A stretch of 42,294 nt of DNA from a virus (IMGVR_UViG_3300003310_000099:1-42294); one strand, 5' to 3'. Counted from the stretch's first letter, positions 22,358-42,294 are shown. Numbers and translations are program-made. Notes: generated from the sequence alone by a model not told the origin.

Positions 22358-22640
22358 AAAAGTGCTTAACTTTCTTGATTCCCCTGATTGGGCTTTGAGT
22401 GTTGATTTAAGCGGTATTGTTTTAAATGTAAATGGGAAGAAACTTAGCATTAGTTTTGAATGTGCCCAATCTATACGTTGGGATAACAGAGCGATTACCG
22501 AAAGTATTGATAAATCAATGTTAAAAGAAATTAGAAAAAAAGGTCAAGCGATATTTAGTATACTCAAAGAAAATCGGCTTACAAGAATTGAAAAAGAACG
22601 CGATGAATTGATCCAAACCGTTTTGAAGGAAATGGGATAA
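22305..22640 (+). CDS. hypothetical protein
   Basis: 111-aa ORF in operon. Confidence 0.5.
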   Translation: MNNIELLGVSVINIELGKKVLNFLDSPDWALSVDLSGIVLNVNGKKLSISFECAQSIRWDNRAITESIDKSMLKEIRKKGQAIFSILKENRLTRIEKERDELIQTVLKEMG

Positions 22641-23467
22641 TGGCACAAGTTAAATGGCTTATTGAACCTGAAATTTTTGAACCTGATGCCCAACCTCTGC
22701 TAGACACTCTTAAAAAAATGGGCGTCGAACATCAAGTGTGGCCGTTTGGTCATATGTATCAGGATTTCAAAAATAAGTTCAGTGATGACTGTGTAGTTTT
22801 CTACGGTAGCTTCCAGTTTGCAAATGTGATTAAAAAACAAACAAGCTGGATTCCTGGCGTATATTGCAATCTGCCTAAATTCGATTGCCTCTATTACTAT
22901 CCACGGCTGGAGAAGTATCTACTAAATTGGAATTATACCATGATGCCTTTAGGGGTTGTTTGCAGTCCTACTAAATCGCATCAATTAAAACATTTTGCAC
23001 CCTTGGATAGCATCTTTATAAGACCATCCAGTGGTGGCAAGTCCTTTACGGGCAAGGTGGTTGATCTAGCCAATCTTGACAAAGAGTTGCGACAATTTGC
23101 GTTAAGGGCAGACCCTGAAACGCTGGTGGTTATTTCTAATCCACAAAGAATTATGCGAGAATGGCGAATGGTGGTGGCTGATAATAAGGTCATTACTGCC
23201 AGCCAGTATAGACACGGCATCCATATGACTCGTTCTAAGGATGTACCAACTGAAGTTACACAATATGCTCAGGATGTATTAAACAATGTTAAATACAATC
23301 CCGATCCTATTTGGACATTGGATATTTGTGAGACAGACGACGGTAGGTTGCACGTTTTAGAAGTTGGGTCATTTTCTTGTGCAGGACTTTATGCATGTGA
23401 CCCAGAAATAATTGTGAACACAGTAAATCAAATTGCTTTAAAAGAATATTTAGAATATCAAAAATGA
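22640..23467 (+). CDS. ATP-grasp domain protein (R2K/DUF4343-like)
   Basis: FIRPSSGGKSFTG, EWRMVV, WTLDI, VLEVGSFSCAGLY. Confidence 0.8.
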   Translation: MAQVKWLIEPEIFEPDAQPLLDTLKKMGVEHQVWPFGHMYQDFKNKFSDDCVVFYGSFQFANVIKKQTSWIPGVYCNLPKFDCLYYYPRLEKYLLNWNYTMMPLGVVCSPTKSHQLKHFAPLDSIFIRPSSGGKSFTGKVVDLANLDKELRQFALRADPETLVVISNPQRIMREWRMVVADNKVITASQYRHGIHMTRSKDVPTEVTQYAQDVLNNVKYNPDPIWTLDICETDDGRLHVLEVGSFSCAGLYACDPEIIVNTVNQIALKEYLEYQK

Positions 23468-24183
23468 GGAAAATTATGAGTACGTTTTTTAGTGCAGACT
23501 TCCATTACAACCACGGCAATATTATTAAATATTGCAATCGTCCCTTCTTGGCAGAAGAGGATCGACAGGCATTGTCCCGTGATGGTCAATGGCATGATGG
23601 TGATTGGAAAGGTGAACGAGCCAGTAAACATCGTATTTCCCGCGAAGGCGTGGAAATGATGAATGACTACATTGTGAACGCCATCAACAAAACCGTGGGC
23701 CAAAACGACACACTTTGGTTCTTGGGCGATTGGTGTTTTGCTGGTAAGAACAACTACTATCAGGTTGCCAGAGAATTTCGTGATAGAATTAACTGCAAGA
23801 CGGTTAATCTTATCTGGGGCAATCATGACCACCGCAACATTCGTGATTTGTTCAATGAGTCTTACGATTTGTTTGAAACATATGTAAATAACCAAAGAAT
23901 GGTTTTGTGTCATTACGCTATGGCTGTATGGGATAAATCTCACAGAGGCTCTTGGCAATTGTACGGTCATTCTCATAGTAATTTAGAATCATGGATGGAC
24001 AAGGTTATGCCAGGACGACGTTCCATTGATGTGGGCATTGACAATGCCAAGAAGGTATTGGGTGATTATCGTCCATTTAGCTTTGAGGATTTGCAGAGGC
24101 TTATTGGCAATAATCCTGGTTTCTCTTCAGATCATCATGGAATGAGAACTGGTCCAACTGAAGAAGATTTAGCTGATAAGTAA
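23464..24183 (+). CDS. calcineurin-like metallophosphoesterase
   Basis: ADFH, LGD, GNHD, CHY, YGHSH motifs. Confidence 0.9.
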   Translation: MRKIMSTFFSADFHYNHGNIIKYCNRPFLAEEDRQALSRDGQWHDGDWKGERASKHRISREGVEMMNDYIVNAINKTVGQNDTLWFLGDWCFAGKNNYYQVAREFRDRINCKTVNLIWGNHDHRNIRDLFNESYDLFETYVNNQRMVLCHYAMAVWDKSHRGSWQLYGHSHSNLESWMDKVMPGRRSIDVGIDNAKKVLGDYRPFSFEDLQRLIGNNPGFSSDHHGMRTGPTEEDLADK

Positions 24184-24351: not shown

Positions 24352-24400
24352 AAAAAGAACTTGACAAACCTTGAAAACGATAGTAAGATAGGTGAGTCAG
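24352..24400 (+). promoter_or_regulatory. repeated promoter cassette copy 1
   Basis: AAAAAGAAC-TTGACA-N17-TAAGAT-AGGTGAGTCAG; near-identical copies at 24612 and 25381. Confidence 0.8.
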
Positions 24401-24404
24401 ATAT

Positions 24405-24524
24405 GGCCAAGTAGCTAAAGAAGATCGCTTTGGTGACTCAGACAAGTGATTGTCTCCAACCCTGAAGCTTACAAGCAATAGTCAGTAAAACTAGAGAATG
24501 TTGGTGCAAATCCAACCTTGGCCG
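24405..24524 (+). ncRNA. module 1 (type B): tRNA-like RNA with Y-like module inserted in the D-loop
   Basis: acceptor GGCCAAG/CTTGGCC; D-stem GCT/AGC; insert GACTCAGACA-agtgat-TGTCTCCAA...GCTTACAAGC; anticodon loop CAGTAAA (GTA, non-canonical A33); T-arm GTTGG-TGCAAAT-CCAAC. Confidence 0.8.
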
Positions 24525-24530
24525 CTAGTA

Positions 24531-24600
24531 GCGTCCCCTAAAGGAAGAACTTACAAACAACAAGGTTATGTTTAAATGATAGTTCTTTAAACTTGGACGC
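24531..24600 (+). ncRNA. module 2 (type A): minimal Y-RNA-like RNA
   Basis: GCGTCC/GGACGC terminal helix, GAAGAAC/GTTCTTT inner helix, TTACAAAC, followed by a T-run. Confidence 0.8.
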
Positions 24601-24611
24601 AACTTTTTTTC

Positions 24612-24660
24612 AAAAAGAACTTGACAAACCTTAAAGACAGTAGTATGATAGGTAAGTCAG
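24612..24660 (+). promoter_or_regulatory. repeated promoter cassette copy 2
   Basis: TTGACA-N17-TATGAT within the same repeat. Confidence 0.8.
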
Positions 24661-24662
24661 GT

Positions 24663-24705
24663 GAGTGGAAGTCCTTAAAGAATGATTATGGACTATGCCA
24701 CACAA
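24663..24705 (+). repeat. 43-nt hairpin repeat copy 1
   Basis: GAGTGGAAGTCCTTAAAGAATGATTATGGACTATGCCACACAA; second copy at 25434. Confidence 0.8.
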
Positions 24706-24757
24706 GGATGGGAAAAGTGCTGAAGACTGTCGTTAGGCAGCGTTCAAGCACAACGCT

Positions 24758-24881
24758 GGGGGATAAAGAAAGCTTTGATGACTTGGACAAGAAATTGTCC
24801 CCAACGGTTTGAGCTTACAAACTTTAAGGTAAAGAAAAGACTTTTAATCTTTTTAAGTGGGTTCAACTCCCACATCCTCCA
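24758..24881 (+). ncRNA. module 3 (type B): tRNA-Lys(TTT) with Y-like module inserted between acceptor stem and D-arm
   Basis: GGGGGAT/ATCCTCC; insert GACTTGGACAA-gaaa-TTGTCCCCAA...GCTTACAAAC; D-arm CTTT-AAGGT-AAAG; AAAGA-CTTTTAA-TCTTT; GTGGG-TTCAACT-CCCAC. Confidence 0.8.
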
Positions 24882-24953
24882 CTAAGGCTTATCACTGAGC
24901 CTGGATTTTGTGTGACGGTCGCCTAGACCCAGAGCAAAACGATCAGTGAACAC

Positions 24954-25064
24954 GGGGTTTAAAAAGGCTTGGAGAACTTAGACAGGAAACTGTCTCCCAC
25001 TTTTTAAGCTTACATACTGGAAAGCAAGGAAACTTGCAAGTTGGTTCGAGTCCAACAAACCCCG
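24954..25064 (+). ncRNA. module 4 (type B): anticodon-less tRNA-like RNA with Y-like insert
   Basis: GGGGTTT/AAACCCC; AACTTAGACAG-gaaa-CTGTCTCCC...GCTTACATAC; GCAAG-GAAA-CTTGC replaces the anticodon arm; GTTGG-TTCGAGT-CCAAC. Confidence 0.8.
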
Positions 25065-25068
25065 CTAA

Positions 25069-25201
25069 CTGTCTCCTATGTTGGGAACTTACAAACATCA
25101 AGTGGGTTCGACTCCCATCAGCAGTTCGCTGCTGTAGCCTAACGGTCAGGCAACTGGCTTTTAACCAGTCTTAAAAAGACGAGTTTTCATGACTTAGACA
25201 G
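25069..25201 (+). ncRNA. module 5 (type A): Y-like stem enclosing a circularly permuted tRNA-Lys(TTT) (YrlA-like order)
   Basis: CTGTCT/AGACAG ends; inside: T-arm GTGGG-TTCGACT-CCCAT, acceptor CAGCAG-TTCG-CTGCTG, D-arm GCCT-AACGGTC-AGGC, ACTGG-CTTTTAA-CCAGT. Confidence 0.85.
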
Positions 25202-25209
25202 TTAATTTT

Positions 25210-25342
25210 GCCAAGGTAGTCTAAAAAACTATTAGTTACAGTGACTTAGACAAGTAATTGTCTCCAATGGTTGTAACTTACAAACAGGTAAGACGTTATC
25301 CTCATAAGGTAAAGTTTGTTGGTTCAAATCCAACCCTTGGCA
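25210..25342 (+). ncRNA. module 6 (type B): tRNA(CAT) with Y-like module inserted in the D-loop
   Basis: GCCAAGG/CCTTGGC; D-stem GTCT/AGAC; insert GTTACA-GTGACTTAGACAA-gtaa-TTGTCTCCAA-tggt-TGTAAC-TTACAAAC; TTATC-CTCATAA-GGTAA; GTTGG-TTCAAAT-CCAAC. Confidence 0.85.
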
Positions 25343-25380
25343 CTGAAAGATTCTTCTTGACAAATAAGAAAACTTTTTTC

Positions 25381-25429
25381 AAAAAGAACTTGACAAACCT
25401 TGAAAACGATGGTAAGATAGGTGAGTCAG
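25381..25429 (+). promoter_or_regulatory. repeated promoter cassette copy 3
   Basis: TTGACA(25390)-N17-TAAGAT. Confidence 0.8.
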
Positions 25430-25433
25430 ATAC

Positions 25434-25476
25434 GAGTGGAAGTCCTTAAAGAATGATTAGGGATTATGCCACACAA
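25434..25476 (+). repeat. 43-nt hairpin repeat copy 2
   Basis: differs from 24663..24705 at two positions. Confidence 0.8.
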
Positions 25477-25503
25477 AGAAGAAAAAGATAGTAGAATGAG
25501 GTT

Positions 25504-25568
25504 GTGGGAGTAGCTCAATGGAGAGCGCCAGTATACTGGAGACGTTGGTTCAAACCCAATCTTCCGCT
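25504..25568 (+). ncRNA. tRNA-like RNA lacking an anticodon loop
   Basis: GTGGGAG/CTTCCGC; GCTC-AATGGA-GAGC; CCAG-TATA-CTGG (4-nt loop); GTTGG-TTCAAAC-CCAAT. Confidence 0.7.
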
Positions 25569-25570
25569 TT

Positions 25571-25697
25571 TGTCTGTCACCGATGTTGAGAACTTACATA
25601 CAATTAGCTCAGTAGATGAGCGTAACTAAGCAGAAGTTAAGGACGTGGGTGCGAATCCCACATTGTTAAAAATCAGTTTTCATGACTTGGACAGACA
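25571..25697 (+). ncRNA. module 7 (type A): Y-like stem enclosing a degenerate tRNA
   Basis: TGTCTGTC/GACAGACA; GAGAAC/GTTTTC; ACTTACATAC; GCTC-AGTAGAT-GAGC; TAACT-AAGCAGA-AGTTA; GTGGG-TGCGAAT-CCCAC; T-run follows. Confidence 0.8.
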
Positions 25698-25716
25698 TTT
25701 TTTTTATATATTGACG

Positions 25717-26208
25717 ATGGGTGTGGATAAAAAGTTTGAGCAGTTAGGTTGTAATTTAGGAAGTGCCGCAATCAAATTGAGAAAGTTAGTTCTTTTTGAT
25801 TTGATTGTTAAGTTTGGTCTAAATAAATGTTATCGGTGCGGTAAAGTGATTGATGCTGTCGATGACTTTACTTTAGATCACAAGATTGATTGGTTAGACT
25901 CGGCTAATCCTGAAGAGTTGTTTTTTGATGTTTCTAATGTAGCTTTTAGTCATGCTCTTTGCAATACATTGGCTAGACGAACGCCAAATAAGGTTAGAGG
26001 TAAAGTAGGTTTTAAGGGTGTTTATTTTGATTCGGGGAGAAAAAAACCTTATAAGGCAGAGTTAGAAACTAAAATCAACGGTGAAAAGAAAGTCTACAGG
26101 TTAGGTAGATTTGGTACAGCAGAAGAAGCAGCTTTGGCTTATGATTTGAAAGCCAAAGAAATTTTAGGAAATCGAGCTATATCAAATCATGATATGGGCT
26201 TGATATGA
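25717..26208 (+). mobile_element. HNH-AP2 (homing-type) endonuclease CDS inserted in the RNA array
   Basis: CYRCG...LDHK...N...SHALCN (HNH with Zn site) followed by GFKGVYFD...RLGRFGTAEEAALAYD (AP2). Confidence 0.85.
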
Positions 26209-26273
26209 GGGGCGGTAGCTTAGCGTTTAAAGCATTAGTCTTATAGACTAAAGATCGAATCCATCCCGCCCCA
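26209..26273 (+). pseudogene. degenerate tRNA (TAT loop) missing the 5' strand of the T-stem
   Basis: GGGGCGG/CCGCCCC; GCTT/AAGC; TTAGT-CTTATAG-ACTAA; then only AGATCGAATCCATC. Confidence 0.65.
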
Positions 26274-26276
26274 CTA

Positions 26277-26607
26277 CACTGTTTCCAACCTTTGGAGCTT
26301 ACAAACTTTGGAGGTTCTAAGGTAGCGAGTTTGCTTGGTTTACGACTTACCCATAGTGGTAAGTGGAGCTTCCAAGCAGCGAATCCAGGTGTAATCGCAA
26401 GATTGCTAATGGATAGTAAGGTGTGAACCTTTCCCGCGATTTCACGGTCAGTCTTCTACGGAAGCCTGAAAAGGTGGTCGAGAGTTAACATAATAGTTGA
26501 CTCACTTGGCGAAAGCCAAGGGCCGATTGGCTTGAGTGTAAACGGATGGGCAACCATCACGCACGACCACAAATAATTGCTCTTATGCTCTGGAAACTTA
26601 GACAGTG
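26277..26607 (+). ncRNA. module 8 (type A): Y-like stem enclosing a ~280-nt structured RNA
   Basis: CACTGTTT/AGACAGTG; GGAGC/GCTCT; CTTACAAAC; internal GNRA hairpins; T-run follows. Confidence 0.75.
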
Positions 26608-26653
26608 TTATTTTTTTAGCTATAGCCCAAGAAAATTGGGTAAGCATAGATCA

Positions 26654-26709
26654 GTTGTCAAAACTTAGAAGGCTCGCCCAACCTTCTCCCATGCGGACAA
26701 CTTACAAAC
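26654..26709 (+). ncRNA. module 9 (type B hairpin, no tRNA flanks recognised)
   Basis: GTTGTC/GACAAC; ACTTAGAAGG...CCTTCTCCC (compensated P1); TTACAAAC. Confidence 0.7.
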
Positions 26710-26786
26710 CAACAAAGATTTAACCTTGGAGAACGAACATGAAGATGGACTATGGTTGACGTAGCAGCTTAGGGTTAGACCCATTT

Positions 26787-26837
26787 GCTGCTAAAACTTA
26801 GACAGGAAACTGTCTCCAAACATAGTAGCTTACAAAC
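26787..26837 (+). ncRNA. module 10 (type B hairpin)
   Basis: GCTGCTA/TAGTAGC; ACTTAGACAG-gaaa-CTGTCTCC; TTACAAAC. Confidence 0.75.
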
Positions 26838-26923
26838 TTGAAGAATAAATCTTAAATTAGGAGTTAACACCATGCGAAAGATGGATAGCGGTTAATCTTG
26901 AAAGTTATCGGGAGTAATTCCCA

Positions 26924-26974
26924 GCTGCTAAAACTTGGATGCGAAAGCGTCCCCAAACTTAGAAGCCTACAAAC
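26924..26974 (+). ncRNA. module 11 (type B hairpin)
   Basis: GCTGCTA...ACTTGGATGC-gaaa-GCGTCCCC...TAGAAGC-CTACAAAC; isolated T-arm GTTGG-TTCAAAT-CCAAC at 27053-27069. Confidence 0.7.
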
Positions 26975-27079
26975 TTTTTAAAGATGCCAAGTGCAAATTG
27001 TTAGAAAAATGCCCATGTAATGTACAATGAGGCGTGAAAAGGTAGTAATGAAGTTGGTTCAAATCCAACACGCGCTAAT

Positions 27080-27200
27080 TTCCGTCCCCTACAAGGTTAG
27101 TTTACAAACATAGCTCATTAGTAGAGCGCAACCATTAGAAGGTTGAAGTAATTGGTGCGAATCCAATTGTTTCTCGATAGCTGACTAAACTTGGACGGAA
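27080..27200 (+). ncRNA. module 12 (type A): Y-like stem enclosing a degenerate tRNA
   Basis: TTCCGTCC/GGACGGAA; TTTACAAAC; GCTC-ATTAGTA-GAGC; CAACC-ATTAGAA-GGTTG; ATTGG-TGCGAAT-CCAAT; 5-bp acceptor AAACA/TGTTT. Confidence 0.8.
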
Positions 27201-27204
27201 CAAT

Positions 27205-27276
27205 GTCGGTGTAGCCAAGCGGTAAGGCATCAGTCTGCAAAGCTGATTACCGTAGGTTCGAATCCTACCGCCGACT
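27205..27276 (+). tRNA. tRNA-Cys(GCA)
   Basis: canonical cloverleaf GTCGGTG/CGCCGAC, TCAGT-CTGCAAA-GCTGA, GTAGG-TTCGAAT-CCTAC, U73 discriminator; CCA not encoded. Confidence 0.92.
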
Positions 27277-27289
27277 TTAAGGTAATATA

Positions 27290-27493
27290 ATGTTAATCTG
27301 CGATAATGGGAATAAGTGTGGGAAGGGTAAAGTGCCATCATGCACTAACCAAGCCATACATATTATCCATACCGTAGATGACAAAGGCAATATAATAGAA
27401 GGGCCAGTCATCAATTTGTGTGATGAACATTTTGATGTGGCAATGCGGTTGGGACTTGTTACTGAGCCGTATATGGGATACGAAGTAACTTGA
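27290..27493 (+). CDS. small hypothetical protein (Cys/His)
   Basis: 67-aa ORF after tRNA-Cys. Confidence 0.45.
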   Translation: MLICDNGNKCGKGKVPSCTNQAIHIIHTVDDKGNIIEGPVINLCDEHFDVAMRLGLVTEPYMGYEVT

Positions 27494-27517
27494 CAATGCG
27501 GAAAATTGTGGTATAGT
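27490..27517 (+). promoter_or_regulatory. sigma70-type promoter for the Ubl-like gene
   Basis: TTGACA-N16-TATAGT. Confidence 0.7.
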
Positions 27518-27550
27518 AAGAGTGGAGACGACAAAGAGGAGGAAGGGAAA

Positions 27551-27784
27551 ATGGAAAATCAAGTAATTGACGCAGTACCTCAGATTCACATTCGCTACGA
27601 CGGTCGTAGCATTGACATTCCTTTGAGCGAAGTAGACGTTGGTGTTCTGTCTACGGACGAACAGATTCGTGCTGCTGTCGCTGAGAACCTTGGTGTGCCA
27701 GTCGGAAAGCTTCGCGCTTTCGCCATCGACCGCAACCAAGAGACGAATCACCTGACCCTTCGTCCAGAAGCGGTTTGGGGTTGA
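27551..27784 (+). CDS. putative ubiquitin-like (beta-grasp) small protein ending in Gly (...LRPEAVWG)
   Basis: 77 aa from ATG 27551 with purine-rich SD; beta-beta-alpha-beta-beta pattern (IHIRY-SIDIP-helix DEQIRAAVAENL-FAID-LTLR); C-terminal Gly. Confidence 0.6.
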   Translation: MENQVIDAVPQIHIRYDGRSIDIPLSEVDVGVLSTDEQIRAAVAENLGVPVGKLRAFAIDRNQETNHLTLRPEAVWG

Positions 27785-27870
27785 AATTTTTGATCCCCAG
27801 GCATGGGGCTGACTTGGTGGGGAGTTATGAAAAGAATTGCCAAGTGATAATTAGGAACCATGCCAAATTT

Positions 27871-28001
27871 GCGGGAGTAGCTGAATAGTAAATAGTTTTT
27901 TATACTTAGACGGGCTAAACTCCGTCTCCGACTTGAAAAACTTACAAACAAGCGTCAGTATTCTAAACTGAAGTATGTGGGTGCGACTCCCACCTCCCGC
28001 T
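27871..28001 (+). ncRNA. module 13 (type B): tRNA-Arg(TCT)-like RNA with Y-like module in the D-loop
   Basis: GCGGGAG/CTCCCGC; GCT/AGC; AGTTTTT/AAAAACT; ACTTAGACGG...CCGTCTCC; CTTACAAAC; TCAGT-ATTCTAA-ACTGA; GTGGG-TGCGACT-CCCAC. Confidence 0.8.
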
Positions 28002-28002
28002 C

Positions 28003-28186
28003 TTTTTCCTGATAGTGCCAGCACCGACCCCGAAATGTTACCAAACAGGGGTGGTAAACGGCGGGTAACACCGCTAGTCCCTTTGACCGCTCAAGAGTTG
28101 GCTGATTACTCTTCGGAGGAAAAACAGCTTTTGGGCAACAACCCTGTTCCTCAACATAAAGTGTTGGGGTGGCCGTTCAGGAAAAA
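28003..28186 (+). ncRNA. unidentified structured RNA
   Basis: 10-bp closing stem TTTTTCCTGA/TCAGGAAAAA; hairpins; TGTTAC/GTAACA loop-loop complementarity. Confidence 0.55.
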
Positions 28187-28187
28187 T

Positions 28188-28254
28188 TCCGTCTCCTAAA
28201 AAGGAAGCTTACAAACTAGCCAATGTTTAACACAGCTTCCTAAACTAAGACGGA
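28188..28254 (+). ncRNA. module 14 (type A): minimal Y-RNA-like RNA
   Basis: TCCGTCT/AGACGGA; AGGAAGCT/AGCTTCCT; CTTACAAAC; T-rich tail. Confidence 0.8.
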
Positions 28255-28277
28255 TTTATTTTTATTTTAAGTGACTT

Positions 28278-28405
28278 GTTTTGTCCCCAATGTTGAGAAC
28301 TTACAAACAATTTGCTCAACGGTAGAGCATCAACCTCCAAAGTTGAAAGTGTTGGTTCAAATCCAGCATTGTTTACCAAAACAGTTTTCAAGACTTGGAC
28401 GAAAC
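28278..28405 (+). ncRNA. module 15 (type A): Y-like stem enclosing an intact tRNA-Trp
   Basis: GTTTTGTCC/GGACGAAAC; GAGAAC/GTTTTC; ACTTACAAAC overlaps the tRNA 5' end. Confidence 0.85.
28305..28378 (+). tRNA. tRNA-Trp(CCA) with encoded CCA end, nested in module 15
   Basis: AAACAAT/ATTGTTT-A-CCA; GCTC-AACGGTA-GAGC; TCAAC-CTCCAAA-GTTGA; GTTGG-TTCAAAT-CCAGC. Confidence 0.8.
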
Positions 28406-28409
28406 GAGA

Positions 28410-28501
28410 TGGCTAGTAGCTTAACGGTAAAGCACTTGCTAAGTCGGGCGTTAAAACCTGACCTGTAAGAAGAAGTAGGGTTCAACTCCCTGCCTGGCCA
28501 C
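28410..28501 (+). ncRNA. tRNA-like RNA with extended anticodon arm
   Basis: TGGCTAG/CTGGCCA; GCTT-AACGGTA-AAGC; CTTGC/GTAAG plus internal loop plus GTCGGG-CGTTAAAA-CCTGAC; TAGGG-TTCAACT-CCCTG. Confidence 0.7.
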
Positions 28502-28503
28502 TT

Positions 28504-28574
28504 TCTGTCCCCTATAGGTAAAACTTACAAACATTACCAATGACGATGCTAAAAGTTTTACAAACTTGGACAGA
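28504..28574 (+). ncRNA. module 16 (type A): minimal Y-RNA-like RNA
   Basis: TCTGTCC/GGACAGA; GTAAAACT/AGTTTTAC; CTTACAAAC. Confidence 0.8.
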
Positions 28575-28592
28575 CTAATATTCAAGAAAATT

Positions 28593-28660
28593 TCCGTCCC
28601 CTATAAGAAGAACTTACAAACACTCAATTATCGTTTAACAGTTCTTTTGACTTGGACGGA
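28593..28660 (+). ncRNA. module 17 (type A): minimal Y-RNA-like RNA
   Basis: TCCGTCC/GGACGGA; GAAGAAC/GTTCTTT; CTTACAAAC; T-run follows. Confidence 0.8.
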
Positions 28661-28850: not shown

Positions 28851-28865
28851 CAAGGAGAATTGAAA

Positions 28866-30368
28866 ATGGCTAATACTGAAATTGATACCCGTCTCAACAT
28901 CCTTAACACCCTGTTGACCACTCCTCACTGTAAGCTGGATCAGGTTTACCCGATTCACGCTGAGATGATTAAGCAAGACCCGTTATTCTACGGTCGTTTG
29001 GGTGCATGGTACAATGACACTGGTGACGTTCGTGACCACAAGGAAATGTTCGTCATCAACATGTGCCTGAGTGACTTTGAAGGCCACCGTGACGCTGGAT
29101 TGGCAATGCTGCGTGAAATGCCACCGTACCAGCTTGGCCGTGTCGTAGACTTCATCCACGGTCGTAAGGACACTAAGAAGTCCAAGGCCAAGAAGGGTGA
29201 AACTCCAACCACGACGGTTGAAAACTACGGTTTGTTCAAGAACATTCCGCGTTCCGTCAAGACGGAAGTGGTTCGTTATCTCCGTGAACGTGAAGCGGAA
29301 CCAGAGTGGTTCGATTCTTGCGCCGTCACTGCGCGTAAGTATTTGAAGCGTCTCTATGCTCTCATGCACATTAGCCCAAATGAGCGTGCGCAGAAGATTC
29401 TCTTTGAAGATTTGCCGCCAGAAGATTCCAAGCTGTTCGCAGTGAAGGAACTCTTCAAGGCGAAGACGCCAGCGGAACAGGCCAAGACGATCATGGCGCA
29501 CAAGATTCCGTACCGTATCGCTTCGACGGTCGTTTCTGCCATGACTCCGACCGTACTCTTGGCTTTGATTGAAGTTATGTCGGATATGGAGTTAATCAAT
29601 AACCTTGGTTCTCTCCGTAAGCGTGGTGCATTTGAGAATCCAGACCTCAAGGCACTCATTGAGAAGAAGCTTGAGAAGGCCAAGTCTGGTAAGCGTGTTT
29701 CGGCACTCAAGGCAACTGAAGCCGTTAAGTCGGCTGGTGTTGATGATGCTACGGTCAAGCAACTGGAAGCGGTTGCTGACTCGCAGTTGAAGAAGAAGGG
29801 CCGTATCAATCGCTCTACTGCACTGCTGATTGATAAGTCTGGCTCCATGAGTCAGGCTATCGAATTGGGCAAGCAGATTGGTTCGATGATTTCTGCTATC
29901 ATGGATGCAGATTTGTATGTATACGCTTTCGACACGATGGCGTATCCCCTCAAGGCACAGGGCACCGACCTTGCTTCCTGGGACAAGGCATTGCGTGGTA
30001 TCAACGCTGGGGGTGGAACCTCTTGCGGTGTGCCTCTTGAGTACATGATTCGCAACAAGCAGCTTGCGGAGAACATTATCGTCATCACGGACGAAGGCGA
30101 AAACGGTACTCCTGCATTCGTGCCGACCCTGAAGAAGTACATGGCTGAACTCAAGGCAACCCCTTCTGTCTGCTTTGTAAAGACTACGGGTGCATCGAAT
30201 CAGCTTGAACAGCAGATGCAGCGTGAAGGACTGAACTGTGACGCCTGGCAGTTCAGTGGGGATTACTACAGTCTGCCCAACTTGATCCCCTACCTGTCCA
30301 AGCCATCGAAGGTCGATCTTCTGATGGAAATCATGTGTTACGAAATGCCTGTCCGCAAGACGGCATAA
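28866..30368 (+). CDS. Ro60-like TROVE + vWA domain RNA-binding protein
   Basis: N-terminal helical region (QDPLFYGRL...DVRDHKE; MSDMELINNLGSL resembling the Ro60 MPxxALLRNLG motif) and C-terminal vWA MIDAS (LLIDKSGSM, GGGTSCG, VITDEGEN); SD AAGGAG; biased codon usage (CGT, AAG). Confidence 0.75.
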   Translation: MANTEIDTRLNILNTLLTTPHCKLDQVYPIHAEMIKQDPLFYGRLGAWYNDTGDVRDHKEMFVINMCLSDFEGHRDAGLAMLREMPPYQLGRVVDFIHGRKDTKKSKAKKGETPTTTVENYGLFKNIPRSVKTEVVRYLREREAEPEWFDSCAVTARKYLKRLYALMHISPNERAQKILFEDLPPEDSKLFAVKELFKAKTPAEQAKTIMAHKIPYRIASTVVSAMTPTVLLALIEVMSDMELINNLGSLRKRGAFENPDLKALIEKKLEKAKSGKRVSALKATEAVKSAGVDDATVKQLEAVADSQLKKKGRINRSTALLIDKSGSMSQAIELGKQIGSMISAIMDADLYVYAFDTMAYPLKAQGTDLASWDKALRGINAGGGTSCGVPLEYMIRNKQLAENIIVITDEGENGTPAFVPTLKKYMAELKATPSVCFVKTTGASNQLEQQMQREGLNCDAWQFSGDYYSLPNLIPYLSKPSKVDLLMEIMCYEMPVRKTA

Positions 30369-35415: not shown

Positions 35416-35738
35416 TGAGAATCTGTGATATCATCAAACCCAATATACCTTGCCGCTTGGAACACCCCATTGTTGGTGAGGTATATTGGGGCATCAAGGA
35501 CGGTTGTTGGGGTTTGTATTTTGCCAAGGGTTATGATGCTCATAAATTCCTTGTCGCTGATGATGCCGTTTTAATGAGTGATGAATGGAAGCAAACAAAC
35601 AAGTTAAGCTCTGAAGACTTGGCTGGACTTATCGCTGACGCACTCATTCCCAAGTTCTTTATGAAGGAATGGTACGCTAAGGCGGTTAAAGTTATTGCTG
35701 AGGAAATTGACGCTAGAAAGGCAATGGGTGACTACTAA
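35415..35738 (+). CDS. hypothetical protein
   Basis: TAATG overlap. Confidence 0.6.
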   Translation: MRICDIIKPNIPCRLEHPIVGEVYWGIKDGCWGLYFAKGYDAHKFLVADDAVLMSDEWKQTNKLSSEDLAGLIADALIPKFFMKEWYAKAVKVIAEEIDARKAMGDY

Positions 35739-36430
35739 TGATGAATGAACAGTGTTGGGTTTTGGTTGGGGGAATTAATGGCGACCTTTGGTGGGGTGAG
35801 AAGTTTGGTCCTCAACATGAAGGTACGCCTGCCAGTGTTGCTTTTGACCCAGACTTTGTAACTAAGCGTGAAGAGGAACATGGTGATGTGGTAGGATTTA
35901 TCCACACTCACCCAAGTTTTACTGCGCATTATAGTATGCGTGATGATCGCACCATGAAGGCTTGGGTTTTATCTTTGGGTAAGCCTCTTGTCTGTTGTAT
36001 TATTGGCACGGATGGGCTGCGCGCATTTTGGTACAACAATGACGAAGACCCGCCAACTGAGGAAACAGTTCACTCTCTTCGTGGTGCGATCTTTGGGCTT
36101 ACACCACCAGAAGATTTTGAGCCTGAAAAAGATGATTTTTCAGATTTGATTATTGATGAACCACCACCTAGTCTGGGTGTAAACCAGCTTGTAAAGGTTA
36201 TTGCTGGTAAACATCAAGGGGTAGAAGGTAGAGTACAGTTTTATCAGACTGAAGGTGAAGGCGGGAGAATAAGGGTACGTCTTGCTGATGGTAGCCAAAT
36301 CTATGTTGATAAAGAAGATATAGATTTTAAGTTTGAGTATATCGACGCAGAGGTAATGATGGATGAAGAGGAACGTGAAGCTTTCCATCAGCAAATCAAG
36401 GAAATAAAAGAAGGTGAATATTTATCATGA
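35738..36430 (+). CDS. JAB/MPN+ (JAMM) metalloprotease with C-terminal KOW-like domain
   Basis: VVGFIHTHPSFTAHYSMRD = HxH-x7-S-x2-D; LVKVIAGKHQGVEGRV (KOW). Confidence 0.8.
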   Translation: MMNEQCWVLVGGINGDLWWGEKFGPQHEGTPASVAFDPDFVTKREEEHGDVVGFIHTHPSFTAHYSMRDDRTMKAWVLSLGKPLVCCIIGTDGLRAFWYNNDEDPPTEETVHSLRGAIFGLTPPEDFEPEKDDFSDLIIDEPPPSLGVNQLVKVIAGKHQGVEGRVQFYQTEGEGGRIRVRLADGSQIYVDKEDIDFKFEYIDAEVMMDEEEREAFHQQIKEIKEGEYLS

Positions 36431-42130: not shown

Positions 42131-42202
42131 ACCAGAGTAGAGAAGCAGTATCTCGCTTGGCTCATAACCAAGAAATCGGTGGTGCAAATCCATCCTCTGG
42201 AA
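42131..42202 (+). tRNA. tRNA with CAT anticodon (Met; 1:72 mismatch suggests initiator-like)
   Basis: ACCAGAG/CTCTGGA; GAGA-AGCAGTA-TCTC; CTTGG-CTCATAA-CCAAG; GGTGG-TGCAAAT-CCATC. Confidence 0.8.
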
Positions 42203-42294
42203 CTTTAGAAGTGAACTGCTCTTGTTGAGCATAAACAAGGTTTAAAAAATGAACACTATCATCGTGAAACGCTGGTTCGGTATTGAAGCTGTCA

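What the first reader, a model, noticed from the sequence alone, without database searches (positions are those of the whole stretch)
24405..28001. tRNAs interrupted by a circularly permuted Y-like module (type B chimeras)
Five units (24405, 24758, 24954, 25210, 27871) keep an acceptor stem and T-arm but carry the module, in permuted order (ACTTRGAC-loop-GTCYCC...TTACAAAC), inside the 5' half. In 25210 the D-stem GTCT/AGAC is intact and the insert sits in the D-loop before the GG. In 24405 and 27871 the D-stem is GCT/AGC. In 24758 the insert lies between the acceptor stem and an intact D-arm. Anticodon loops read GTA (non-canonical loop), TTT, none (GAAA tetraloop), CAT and TCT. Inference: these are tRNAs with a built-in protein-binding handle. 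They might be aminoacylated RNPs, Ro-protected tRNAs or baits. Standard tRNA finders would probably miss them.
Basis: partly seen in the sequence, partly recalled or inferred. Interest (0 to 1): 0.88.

Follow-up and report, generated by a model that had tools for sequence, protein, structure and literature searches.

The report
tRNA bodies carrying an internal Ro60-type handle
A huge bacteriophage encodes five tRNA-shaped RNAs that each carry, inside the tRNA core, the hairpin "handle" found on the other small RNAs next to its Ro60 gene; this conserved design looks undescribed and could help show what Ro60 partner RNAs do.

Summary
All five units (24405, 24758, 24954, 25210, 27871) have a 7-bp acceptor stem, a T arm and a 50-55 nt hairpin. 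The hairpin is the closed, circularly permuted form of the handle (GTCYCC-N12-TTACAAAC / ACTTRGAC) that clamps cargo elsewhere in the same 17-copy array.

- **tRNA finders:** ARAGORN finds none of the five intact. After in-silico removal of the handle it calls Tyr(GTA), Lys(TTT), Met(CAT) and Arg(TCT). The fifth unit has a GAAA hairpin in place of an anticodon loop.
- **Ro60 gene:** The gene just downstream (28860-30368) is a divergent Ro60 by predicted fold.
- **Family:** The design recurs in more than 50 huge-phage contigs and in none of about 185,000 prokaryote genomes scanned. 59 of 95 handles sit inside a tRNA body, against 0.5-5.5% in controls.
- **Conservation:** All six helices covary, and so does the 18:55 elbow contact. 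The units share the N73-CU trailer of the phage's ordinary tRNAs.

They are an old, co-evolving RNA family, not recently broken tRNA genes. I found no description in the papers I could search. This scan has noted similar handle-in-tRNA RNAs on other phage DNA (e1-4039927).

The parts
24405..24525 (+). U1: tRNA-like body, acceptor GGCCAAG/CTTGGCC, 3-bp D stem GCT/AGC enclosing the handle, anticodon-like loop CAGTAAA (GTA, A33), T loop TGCAAAT
   Evidence: fold. ARAGORN calls Tyr(gta) after deletion; orthologues with compensatory changes.
24427..24476 (+). U1 handle, closed hairpin: P1 5' strand, ACTCAGAC, loop, GTCTCC, 11-nt spacer, tail TTACAAGC
24758..24882 (+). U2: tRNA-Lys(TTT)-like body with the handle between the acceptor stem and an intact D arm (CTTT/AAAG, GG present)
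   Evidence: Rfam tRNA partial hit 24821-24873, 35 bits.; compensatory T-stem change in L002.
24772..24822 (+). U2 handle (P1, ACTTGGAC, GAAA-type loop, GTCCCC, N12, TTACAAAC)
24954..25066 (+). U3: acceptor GGGGTTT/AAACCCC, handle, GG remnant, 5-bp hairpin capped by GAAA instead of an anticodon loop, T arm
   Evidence: z -4.4; no tRNA call after deletion; relatives carry CTCCAAA or other loops at this place.
24967..25017 (+). U3 handle (tail variant TTACATAC)
25210..25343 (+). U4: tRNA-Met/Ile2(CAT)-like body, 4-bp D stem GTCT/AGAC, handle in the 5' part of the D loop before GG
   Evidence: orthologues L016:688-828 and L033:12972-13111 with anticodon GAT.
25235..25285 (+). U4 handle (P1 GTTACA/TGTAAC)
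27871..28002 (+). U5: tRNA-Arg(TCT)-like body, D stem GCT/AGC enclosing the handle, T loop TGCGACT
   Evidence: the MFE fold is the full cloverleaf plus handle, z -4.6.. L002 orthologue with CCT and compensatory changes in the acceptor stem, T stem and P2.
27895..27949 (+). U5 handle (P1 GTTTTTT/GAAAAAC)
28860..30368 (+). Divergent Ro60 (HEAT-repeat ring plus vWA), the presumed partner of the handle
   Evidence: Pfam vWA_Ro60, 1.3e-4. PDB TROVE/Ro60 by sequence. AF2 model pLDDT 81.5; the 13 best Foldseek hits are all Ro60 over the whole length, E 2e-11 to 1e-8.
24533..28660 (+). Rest of the array: 9 open (cargo-clamping) handles and 3 closed handles outside tRNA bodies (26666-26709, 26787-26837, 26924-26974)
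   Evidence: same P1/P2 register in 8 of the 9 open handles.
24361..24389 (+). Sigma-70-like promoter 15 nt upstream of U1. Similar sites lie at 24621-24649, upstream of U2-U4, and at 27490-27517, upstream of U5.
   Evidence: 10-11 of 12 consensus positions. These are consensus matches only.

Best explanation
The five units are genes for chimeric small RNAs. Each is an L-shaped tRNA body with free 5' and 3' ends, a 7-bp acceptor stem, a T arm and an elbow contact. Four of the five also have a 7-nt anticodon loop.

A 50-55 nt hairpin branches from the tRNA core, either at the D loop or at the junction between the acceptor stem and the D arm. The hairpin has the order P1, a conserved internal loop (ACUU opposite CC-N-A-Y), P2, and a 3' tail YUACAAAC. 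It is the closed form of the handle that elsewhere in the array pairs a 5' leader with a 3' trailer around a cargo.

Topologically the units are the inverse of bacterial YrlA. In YrlA the Ro stem is open and the acceptor stem is closed. Here the handle is closed and the acceptor stem is open.

Inferred steps, none of them shown:
1. The units are transcribed from the array's own promoters.
2. Their ends are matured like those of the phage's tRNAs.
3. The handle binds the phage Ro60 encoded just downstream.
4. The resulting particle shows a tRNA acceptor end and a specific anticodon loop to tRNA-binding factors.

My preferred role is a tether or decoy for anticodon-specific enzymes or host tRNA nucleases, rather than routine decoding.
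For: **Structure**
- Folds and z-scores support the fold of each unit.
- The handle has fixed geometry and covaries in 86 closed copies: P1 is 85% paired against 40-59% in slid registers, and P2 extension pairs show up to 6 pair types.
- The same register holds in the open handles.

**tRNA body**
- Deleting the handle gives ARAGORN tRNAs in 4 of 5 units.
- It does so in 59 of 95 closed handles across all loci. Controls gave 1 of 200 at random genome places and 11 of 200 at random places in the loci.

**Covariation**
- On 18 aligned units, 96.9% of cells pair, against 39-50% when slid.
- 22 of 33 pairs change on both sides, and every one of the six helices has such pairs.

**Tertiary contact**
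- 44 of 45 units with D-loop GG have T loop UUC.
- 8 of 10 without GG have UGC, and all eight have AG in place of GG.
- The same rule holds in the phage's ordinary tRNAs.

**End processing**
- N73 is followed by CU in 50 of 54 chimeras and in 43 of 55 ordinary phage tRNAs.
- The phage encodes a CCA-adding enzyme.

**Ro60 link**
- The downstream gene has the Ro60 fold.
- The Ro60 gene lies directly downstream of the array in 19 loci.
- Two loci reached through the protein alone also have arrays with chimeras.

**Against routine decoding**
- Uninterrupted Lys(ttt), Met(cat) and Arg(tct) genes exist elsewhere in the genome.
- A33 is conserved in the GTA loop across six phages.
- U3 has no anticodon loop.
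- Two relatives have 8-nt loops, and one acceptor scaffold (GGGGGAG) carries CAT or TCT.
Against: - Ro60 binding is not shown. The handle lacks the GNCGAA/CGAA motif of bacterial and phiLo Y RNAs (PMC4201824, PMC12135203). It shares only GUCC with the vertebrate GGUCCGA.
- Some features favour a charged, translation-related role over a decoy: the 7-bp acceptor stem, the tRNA-type N73-CU trailer, and two orthologue pairs that may keep the amino-acid class through an anticodon change. These are TCT to CCT (Arg) and CAT to GAT (Ile only if the CAT unit is an Ile2 type).
- ARAGORN selection inflates the paired fraction for the acceptor, anticodon and T helices. It does not affect P1, P2 or the D stem.
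- Units come and go between close relatives, so no single unit is essential.
Confidence: 0.6

Rival explanations
1. Intron-like insert. The units are true tRNA genes, and the handle is cut out after transcription and the halves are joined. Ro60 might hold the halves together. The result would be functional tRNA-Tyr, Lys, Met and Arg.
For: - Deleting the handle gives cloverleaves.
- The phage has Rnl1-type and Rnl2-type RNA ligases.
- ARAGORN finds no ordinary tRNA-Tyr in the genome.
Against: - The genome has no splicing endonuclease and no RtcB.
- There is no group I intron hit.
- The junction is a plain helix without bulge-helix-bulge geometry.
- Insertion sites differ: acceptor/D junction, both halves of the D loop, position 26, and the variable loop.
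- The identical handle also clamps non-tRNA cargo.
- U3 would give no anticodon, and U1 would give an A33 loop.
- Ordinary Lys, Met and Arg genes already exist.
Confidence: 0.1
2. Charged, translation-active chimeras. The units are aminoacylated and bring an amino acid or Ro60 to the ribosome, or to an aminoacyl-tRNA-dependent transferase, somewhat as tmRNA does.
For: - The units have 7-bp acceptor stems and the N73-CU trailer shared with real tRNAs.
- The elbow contact is conserved.
- U2, U4 and U5 have canonical U33 loops.
- Arg identity is kept through TCT to CCT.
- A ribosome recycling factor gene lies 600 nt downstream of the Ro60 gene.
Against: - A 50-nt helix, possibly with a 55-kDa ring attached, at the D loop would probably clash inside the ribosome (inference).
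- A33 is conserved in the GTA loop, and some relatives have 8-nt or missing anticodon loops.
- The U1 type lacks the long variable arm of bacterial tRNA-Tyr (established knowledge).
- The same acceptor scaffold carries different anticodons.
Confidence: 0.15
3. Decaying pseudogenes. tRNA genes were hit by a mobile repeat, or scrambled by recombination between handle copies, and now have no function.
For: - Array content differs between close relatives. One breakpoint lies inside U3 and another at the end of the U2 handle.
- U3 has lost its anticodon loop.
- A decayed minihelix lies at 27033-27080.
Against: - Compensatory changes occur in all helices across phages whose Ro60 is 56-94% identical.
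- The 18:55 tertiary pair covaries.
- The trailer signature is conserved.
- The handle has one strict orientation and register.
- The chimeras have no near-identical ordinary paralogue in the genome.
Confidence: 0.05
4. The handle is not a Ro60 site. It is a processing or transcription signal (an RNase III or RNase E site, or a terminator-like clamp), or the site of another protein, and its position next to Ro60 is incidental.
For: - It lacks the CGAA-type Ro motif.
- Several open handles are followed by T runs.
- One bacterial-type contig with a Ro60 homologue has no such handle within 6 kb upstream.
Against: - In every fetched locus that contains the Ro60 gene, the array lies directly upstream on the same strand. 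Arrays also lie upstream in the two phage-type contigs reached through the protein alone.
- Closed handles have no T run.
- The invariant internal loop and single-stranded tail look like a protein-recognition surface (inference).
Confidence: 0.1

Closest known systems
YrlA, the tRNA-mimicking Y RNA of bacterial and phage Ro60/Rsr (Rfam RF02553; Chen et al. 2014, PMC4201824; structure preprint 10.1101/312249)
   Same: It is encoded next to a Ro60 gene. It combines a Ro-type stem module with a tRNA-like domain that keeps the T arm, the D arm and the elbow contacts. It is thought to derive from tRNA.
   Different: YrlA is a permuted tRNA: the acceptor stem is closed by a loop, there is no free CCA end, the anticodon loop is gone, and the Ro module is formed by the RNA's own 5' and 3' ends in place of the anticodon stem. 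Here the ends are the natural tRNA ends, the anticodon arm is kept, and the handle is a closed hairpin branching from the D region. The handle lacks GNCGAAN0-1G. The YrlA model does not score on any of the five units.
Mycobacterium smegmatis YrlA (Chen et al. 2014, PMC4201824)
   Same: It has a 7-bp acceptor stem. It is cut by RNase P and receives CCA, so a Ro-bound RNA with a tRNA-like free end has a precedent.
   Different: There the free end arises by cleaving a closed acceptor loop, which gives a two-piece RNA. Here the free ends are encoded as such and an anticodon loop is displayed.
Yrl1 and Yrl2 of Thermus phage phiLo with phage Ro60 (PMC12135203; PDB 9KOP, 9L5Y)
   Same: A phage-encoded Ro60 has Y-like RNAs just upstream of its gene. 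phiLo Ro60 is among the best structural matches of the window's protein.
   Different: phiLo has two simple stem-bulge-stem RNAs with a CGAA motif and no tRNA body. Here there are 17 handles and five tRNA chimeras.
tmRNA
   Same: It is a tRNA-like acceptor/T domain with a large internal insertion. U2 gives a sub-threshold Rfam tmRNA hit (29.1 bits against a threshold of 47).
   Different: The units have no tag reading frame and no pseudoknots. ARAGORN finds no tmRNA in the genome. The chimeras also keep an anticodon arm.
Vertebrate Y RNAs bound by Ro60 (Stein et al. 2005, as cited in PMC4201824)
   Same: Both have a stem, internal loop or bulge, and second stem as the recognition module. The 5' strand GUCC of the handle resembles GGUCCGA.
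   Different: Similarity is limited to a few bases. The Rfam Y_RNA model gave no hit at E up to 5.

Membership tests
Y RNA / YrlA | Encoded beside a Ro60 (TROVE) gene | tested here: met
   The Ro60-fold gene at 28860-30368 lies about 860 nt after U5. The same layout is seen in 19 loci and in 2 loci found through the protein alone.
Y RNA / YrlA | Ro-binding motif GNCGAAN0-1G (CGAA) on the 5' strand | tested here: not met
   The handle consensus is GUCYCC-N-A-Y, a spacer, then YUACAAAC opposite ACUURGAC. There is no CGAA.
Y RNA / YrlA | Ro module formed by pairing of the RNA's 5' and 3' ends | tested here: not met
   In the five units the module is a closed internal hairpin. The feature is met by the nine open handles of the same array.
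Y RNA / YrlA | tRNA-like domain with T arm and D/T elbow contacts | tested here: met
   T stems covary. GG pairs with UUC and AG with UGC at positions 18:55.
Y RNA / YrlA | Scores with the Rfam YrlA covariance model | tested here: not met
   The only hit is 26.3 bits (threshold 69) at 25102-25151, which lies in a different module.
Y RNA / YrlA | Physically bound by Ro60 | not testable with these tools
   This needs a gel-shift assay or co-purification. Complex prediction does not take RNA.
Canonical tRNA | Recognised as a cloverleaf by tRNA finders | tested here: not met
   ARAGORN finds none of the five intact. After deletion of the handle, 4 of 5 are called.
Canonical tRNA | 7-bp acceptor stem, 5-bp T stem, 7-nt T loop | tested here: met
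   Seen in the folds. All 7 acceptor pairs and 3 of 5 T-stem pairs show double changes.
Canonical tRNA | 7-nt anticodon loop with U33 and a purine at 37 | tested here: inconclusive
   Met in U2 (CTTTTAA), U4 (CTCATAA) and U5 (ATTCTAA). Not met in U1 (CAGTAAA, A33) or U3 (GAAA tetraloop).
Canonical tRNA | Same 3' trailer as the genome's own tRNAs | tested here: met
   N73 is followed by CU in 50 of 54 chimeras and 43 of 55 ordinary tRNAs.
Canonical tRNA | Aminoacylation and decoding | not testable with these tools
   This needs charging assays.
Intron-containing tRNA (group I or archaeal bulge-helix-bulge type) | Group I core or splicing endonuclease present | tested here: not met
   No intron family in Rfam scans. 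No tRNA_int_endo and no RtcB in the genome.
Intron-containing tRNA (group I or archaeal bulge-helix-bulge type) | Bulge-helix-bulge at the exon-intron junctions | tested here: inconclusive
   By inspection of the folds the junction is the plain P1 helix. No dedicated bulge-helix-bulge search was run.
tmRNA | Reaches the Rfam threshold or an ARAGORN tmRNA call, with a tag frame | tested here: not met
   U2 scores 29.1 bits against a threshold of 47. ARAGORN -m finds no tmRNA.

The most novel reading that the evidence does not exclude
These are working adaptor RNAs of a new kind. They are tRNA-shaped molecules, matured and CCA-tailed like tRNAs, whose built-in handle loads a Ro60 ring. The phage would thereby present specific anticodon loops (Tyr, Lys, Met/Ile, Arg) as Ro60-linked decoys or sensors for host anticodon nucleases or other anticodon-specific tRNA enzymes, or would carry a charged amino acid on a Ro60 particle. 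They would also be a living intermediate showing how permuted YrlA-type Y RNAs arose from tRNAs.
Probability: 0.3. Interest if true: 0.9.

Novelty: new variant of a known kind. Interest (0 to 1): 0.8.

Why it matters
Why the tRNA-like halves of Y RNAs exist, and what they bind, has been open since YrlA was described in 2014.

This phage family offers dozens of natural variants of one handle. The handle is joined to whole, permuted or internally grafted tRNAs that carry different anticodons. That makes a ready test set for three questions:
- how Ro60 recognises its RNA;
- whether a Ro60-bound RNA can keep a functional tRNA end;
- whether phages use such particles in the contest over tRNA cleavage and repair.

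The chimeras also show that the tRNA fold tolerates a 50-nt branch at the D loop, at position 26 or at the variable loop. They provide an unpermuted counterpart to YrlA that bears on how Y RNAs evolved. Finally, tRNA finders skip these genes, so tRNA counts for huge phages are incomplete.

Tried and rejected
- **Sequencing runs:** Expression, end mapping and a search for spliced junctions could not be done, and read laying was therefore not used.
- **Pfam TROVE (PF05731):** it finds nothing in the genome. The Ro60 call rests on vWA_Ro60, weak PDB sequence hits and the predicted fold.
- **NCBIfam:** no hit for the Ro60-like protein.
- **Genes not found in the genome:** RtcB, archaeal splicing endonuclease and PNPase-type RNase PH domains.
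- **Prokaryote genomes:** the closed-handle pattern found nothing in about 185,000 species genomes.
- **GenBank phages:** only one distant relative, LR756511.1.
- **Rfam at E up to 5:** no Y_RNA hit and no hit on the handle.
- **tmRNA reading of U2:** rejected. The score is below threshold and there is no tag frame.
- **ARAGORN intron mode:** it gave two spurious calls, Leu(cag) and Lys(ctt) with introns placed in the anticodon loop. I rejected them because they ignore the true anticodon arms.
- **Recent copies of the phage's own tRNAs:** rejected. The best matches to ordinary tRNAs are weak and often of another isotype.
- **Bacterial-type Ro60 homologues:** one contig (L062) has no handle upstream, and another (L061) is cut 190 nt upstream of the gene. 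Whether cellular relatives use another handle is open.
- **Open handle 28191:** my script set its partner strand one base off, so only 8 of 9 open handles were scored properly.

Full report
**Setting.** The window is the first 42 kb of a 373-kb, about 98% complete virus record with 41% G+C. It is a huge phage with 58 ARAGORN tRNA genes. Positions 24.2-28.9 kb are almost free of long reading frames and hold six strong sigma-70-like promoters on the + strand.

**The handle.** The region holds 17 copies of one bipartite motif.
- One strand is GTCYCC, a spacer of exactly 12 nt (11 in one copy), then TTACAAAC.
- The other strand is ACTTRGAC.
- In the whole genome the first strand occurs only here, and only on the + strand.
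- Nine copies are open: the GTCYCC strand comes first, then a cargo of 19-280 nt, then ACTTRGAC.
- Eight copies are closed: ACTTRGAC, a short loop, then the GTCYCC strand.
- In both forms the same two helices form. P2 pairs RGAC plus 2-4 nt with GTCY. P1 pairs the 7 nt that end 3 nt before ACTT with the last 7 nt of the spacer. P1 scored 7 of 7 and P2 7-8 of 8 in eight open handles.
- Over 86 closed copies from all loci, P1 is 85% paired against 40-59% in slid registers. The R-Y pair covaries, and the P2 extension pairs show up to six pair types, often under a GNRA loop.
- Between the helices lies an invariant internal loop, ACUU opposite CC-N-A-Y. A single-stranded tail YUACAAAC follows P1.

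**The five units.**
- Unconstrained folding recovers the 7-bp acceptor stem, the T arm and the handle hairpin in every unit. For U5 it recovers the complete cloverleaf with the handle inside a GCT/AGC D stem. Z-scores run from -1.8 to -4.6.
- ARAGORN calls none of them intact.
- I removed the handle in silico over 697 boundary combinations per unit. ARAGORN then called Tyr(gta) for U1, Lys(ttt) for U2, Met(cat) for U4 and Arg(tct) for U5.
- It called nothing for U3, whose anticodon arm is a 5-bp stem capped by GAAA.

**A family, not an accident.**
- The closed-handle pattern occurs in one GenBank huge phage (LR756511.1, 595 kb).
- It also occurs in three IMG/VR contigs and 49 metagenome stretches.
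- It occurs in none of about 185,000 prokaryote species genomes.
- Of 95 distinct closed handles, 59 yield a tRNA that spans the deletion point. Controls gave 1 of 200 at random genome places and 11 of 200 at random places in the same tRNA-rich loci.
- The handle sits at a limited set of places: between the acceptor stem and the D arm or in the 5' part of the D loop; in the 3' part of the D loop inside a 3-bp D stem; after an intact D arm at position 26; and in the variable loop.
- All these sites lie at the core of the L shape and leave the acceptor/T helix and the anticodon arm free. The D loop and the variable loop are also where natural tRNAs vary in length (established knowledge).

**Selection on the structure.**
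- On 18 aligned units of the U1/U5 class (alignment A2), 96.9% of cells pair, against 39-50% when partners are slid.
- 22 of 33 pairs change on both sides.
- Every helix has such pairs: acceptor 7 of 7, D stem 1 of 3, P1 4 of 7, P2 3 of 6, anticodon stem 4 of 5, T stem 3 of 5.
- Selection through ARAGORN inflates the pairing of the acceptor, anticodon and T stems, but not of P1, P2 or the D stem.
- Against the closest relative (Ro60 94% identical), U5 shows compensatory changes in the acceptor stem, the T stem and P2. U2 shows them in the T stem. U1 has a wholly different but still paired acceptor stem.

**A tertiary contact covaries too.**
- 44 of 45 units with GG in the D region have a UUC T loop.
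- 8 of 10 units without GG have UGC, and all eight have AG where GG would be.
- The same rule holds among the phage's ordinary tRNAs. The two without GG, including the tRNA-Leu nested in an open handle at 27104, have UGC.
- This looks like an 18:55 exchange (G18-U55 to A18-G55) with 19:56 kept. It argues that the elbow forms in the chimeras.

**The ends look like tRNA ends.** N73 is followed by CU in 50 of 54 chimeras and in 43 of 55 ordinary tRNAs of this genome. The phage encodes a CCA-adding enzyme.

**The partner protein.**
- The 502-aa gene at 28860-30368 gives weak hits to Pfam vWA_Ro60 and to phage phiLo TROVE and human Ro60 chains.
- An AlphaFold model built from 30 homologues has pLDDT 81.5.
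- Its 13 best PDB matches are all Ro60 proteins over the whole length: human, Xenopus, Deinococcus Rsr and phiLo, with E 2e-11 to 1e-8.
- The protein family is large (more than 2,900 hits), well conserved and unnamed.
- In all 19 fetched loci that contain the gene, it lies directly downstream of the array on the same strand.
- I reached two phage-type contigs through the protein alone (66% and 72% identity). Each has nine handles upstream, and each has chimeras, including another GTA unit with the CAGTAAA loop.
- A bacterial-type contig has none within 6 kb.

**How it most likely works.**

Shown by computation:
- a conserved chimeric fold;
- identity of its hairpin with the array's cargo-clamping handle;
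- tRNA-type elbow and trailer;
- tight linkage to a Ro60 gene.

Inferred:
- transcription from the array promoters;
- tRNA-like maturation;
- binding of Ro60 to the handle;
- a particle that shows a tRNA acceptor end and a chosen anticodon loop.

I favour a tether or decoy role toward anticodon-specific factors over routine decoding, for these reasons:
- Ordinary Lys(ttt), Met(cat) and Arg(tct) genes exist elsewhere.
- The GTA loop keeps A33 instead of the near-universal U33 in six phages.
- The U3 lineage varies or loses its anticodon loop.
- Two relatives have 8-nt loops.
- One acceptor scaffold carries CAT or TCT.
- The phage carries Rnl1- and Rnl2-type RNA ligases, the classic tRNA-repair enzymes. 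From my own knowledge, Tyr, Lys, initiator Met and Arg tRNAs are frequent targets of anticodon nucleases.

Against this reading stand the intact acceptor features and two possible cases of amino-acid class kept through an anticodon change. Rival readings are scored in the report sections: excision, translation-active, pseudogenes, and a handle that is not a Ro60 site.

**Dynamics.**
- Relative to the 94% relative, the window has an extra 1.8 kb (24970-26745), with one breakpoint inside U3. That segment holds U3's handle and 3' part, U4 and five other modules.
- In the 90% relative, similarity stops at the end of U2's handle and resumes at 26670. U5 is absent there.
- Units are therefore gained and lost quickly, with breakpoints in or beside handle-bearing units. 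This fits the variety of cargo and graft sites.

**Comparison with the known.**
- Phage and bacterial Ro60 genes with adjacent Y-like RNAs are known, as is the tRNA mimic YrlA (PMC4201824, 10.1101/312249, PMC12135203, PMC7824862).
- YrlA is described as a permuted tRNA with a closed acceptor stem and no free CCA end.
- The present units have the opposite topology, keep an anticodon arm and use a different handle sequence.
- They fail the YrlA model, and intact they fail the tRNA finders.
- I found no description of such RNAs in three literature searches.
- Earlier notes of this scan report similar Ro60-linked handle RNAs, including a tRNA-Glu with an inserted handle, on other phage DNA. I did not check those.

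**Limits.** There is no binding test and no tree-aware covariation statistic. The motif-based collection fixes the conserved letters of the handle by design.

Noticed in passing
window 27104-27175 and 42131-42203; loci: tRNAs and chimeras without D-loop GG have AG there and a UGC T loop instead of UUC. This looks like an 18:55 tertiary-pair exchange (A18-G55) used by this phage lineage.
   Followed up: partly
window 26307-26586: One open handle (26281/26596) encloses a 280-nt cargo with many hairpins. It matches no Rfam family at E up to 5.
   Followed up: no
window 25717-26208: An HNH plus AP2-domain reading frame, of homing-endonuclease type, sits inside the RNA array. It lies within the 1.8-kb segment absent from the closest relative.
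   Followed up: partly
window 24970-26745 against L002:5055; window 24824/26670 against L036: Close relatives differ by large insertions or deletions. One breakpoint falls inside U3 and another at the end of U2's handle, so the array is being reshuffled.
   Followed up: partly
window 24655-24700 and 25425-25470: A conserved element of about 45 nt (GAGTGGAAGTCC...GCCACAC) follows two of the near-identical promoters. It may be another small hairpin RNA.
   Followed up: no
G000:C1:167507-167581; whole genome: ARAGORN lists a tRNA with anticodon CTA (an amber-reading type) and no tRNA-Tyr or tRNA-Ser among 58 tRNAs. The only Tyr-type anticodon loop is the A33 chimera U1.
   Followed up: no
L060:10012-12031, L062:8586-9624, L063:10149-10640; window 35738-36430: Prok-JAB genes lie a few kb downstream of the Ro60 gene in all three contigs, with a ThiF/E1-type gene beside them in L060 and L062. 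Earlier scan notes link the Ro60 gene to a ubiquitin-like set and place a JAB gene at 35738 in this window.
   Followed up: no
L042:697-826:- and L003:1989-2120:-: Two relatives of the U5 type have 8-nt anticodon loops (CTTTTGAA, ATTTTGGA).
   Followed up: no
window 22640-24183: An R2K-clade ATP-grasp gene and a metallophosphoesterase gene lie directly upstream of the array (phrog_547).
   Followed up: no
L003, L007, L009, L013, L021, L028, L037: A sub-class with an intact D arm and the handle at position 26 occurs in loci where no Ro60 gene was found. L003 and L007 are long enough to have held one; the others are 1-5 kb contigs. The phage record of L003 has its Ro60 gene elsewhere (L005).
   Followed up: partly
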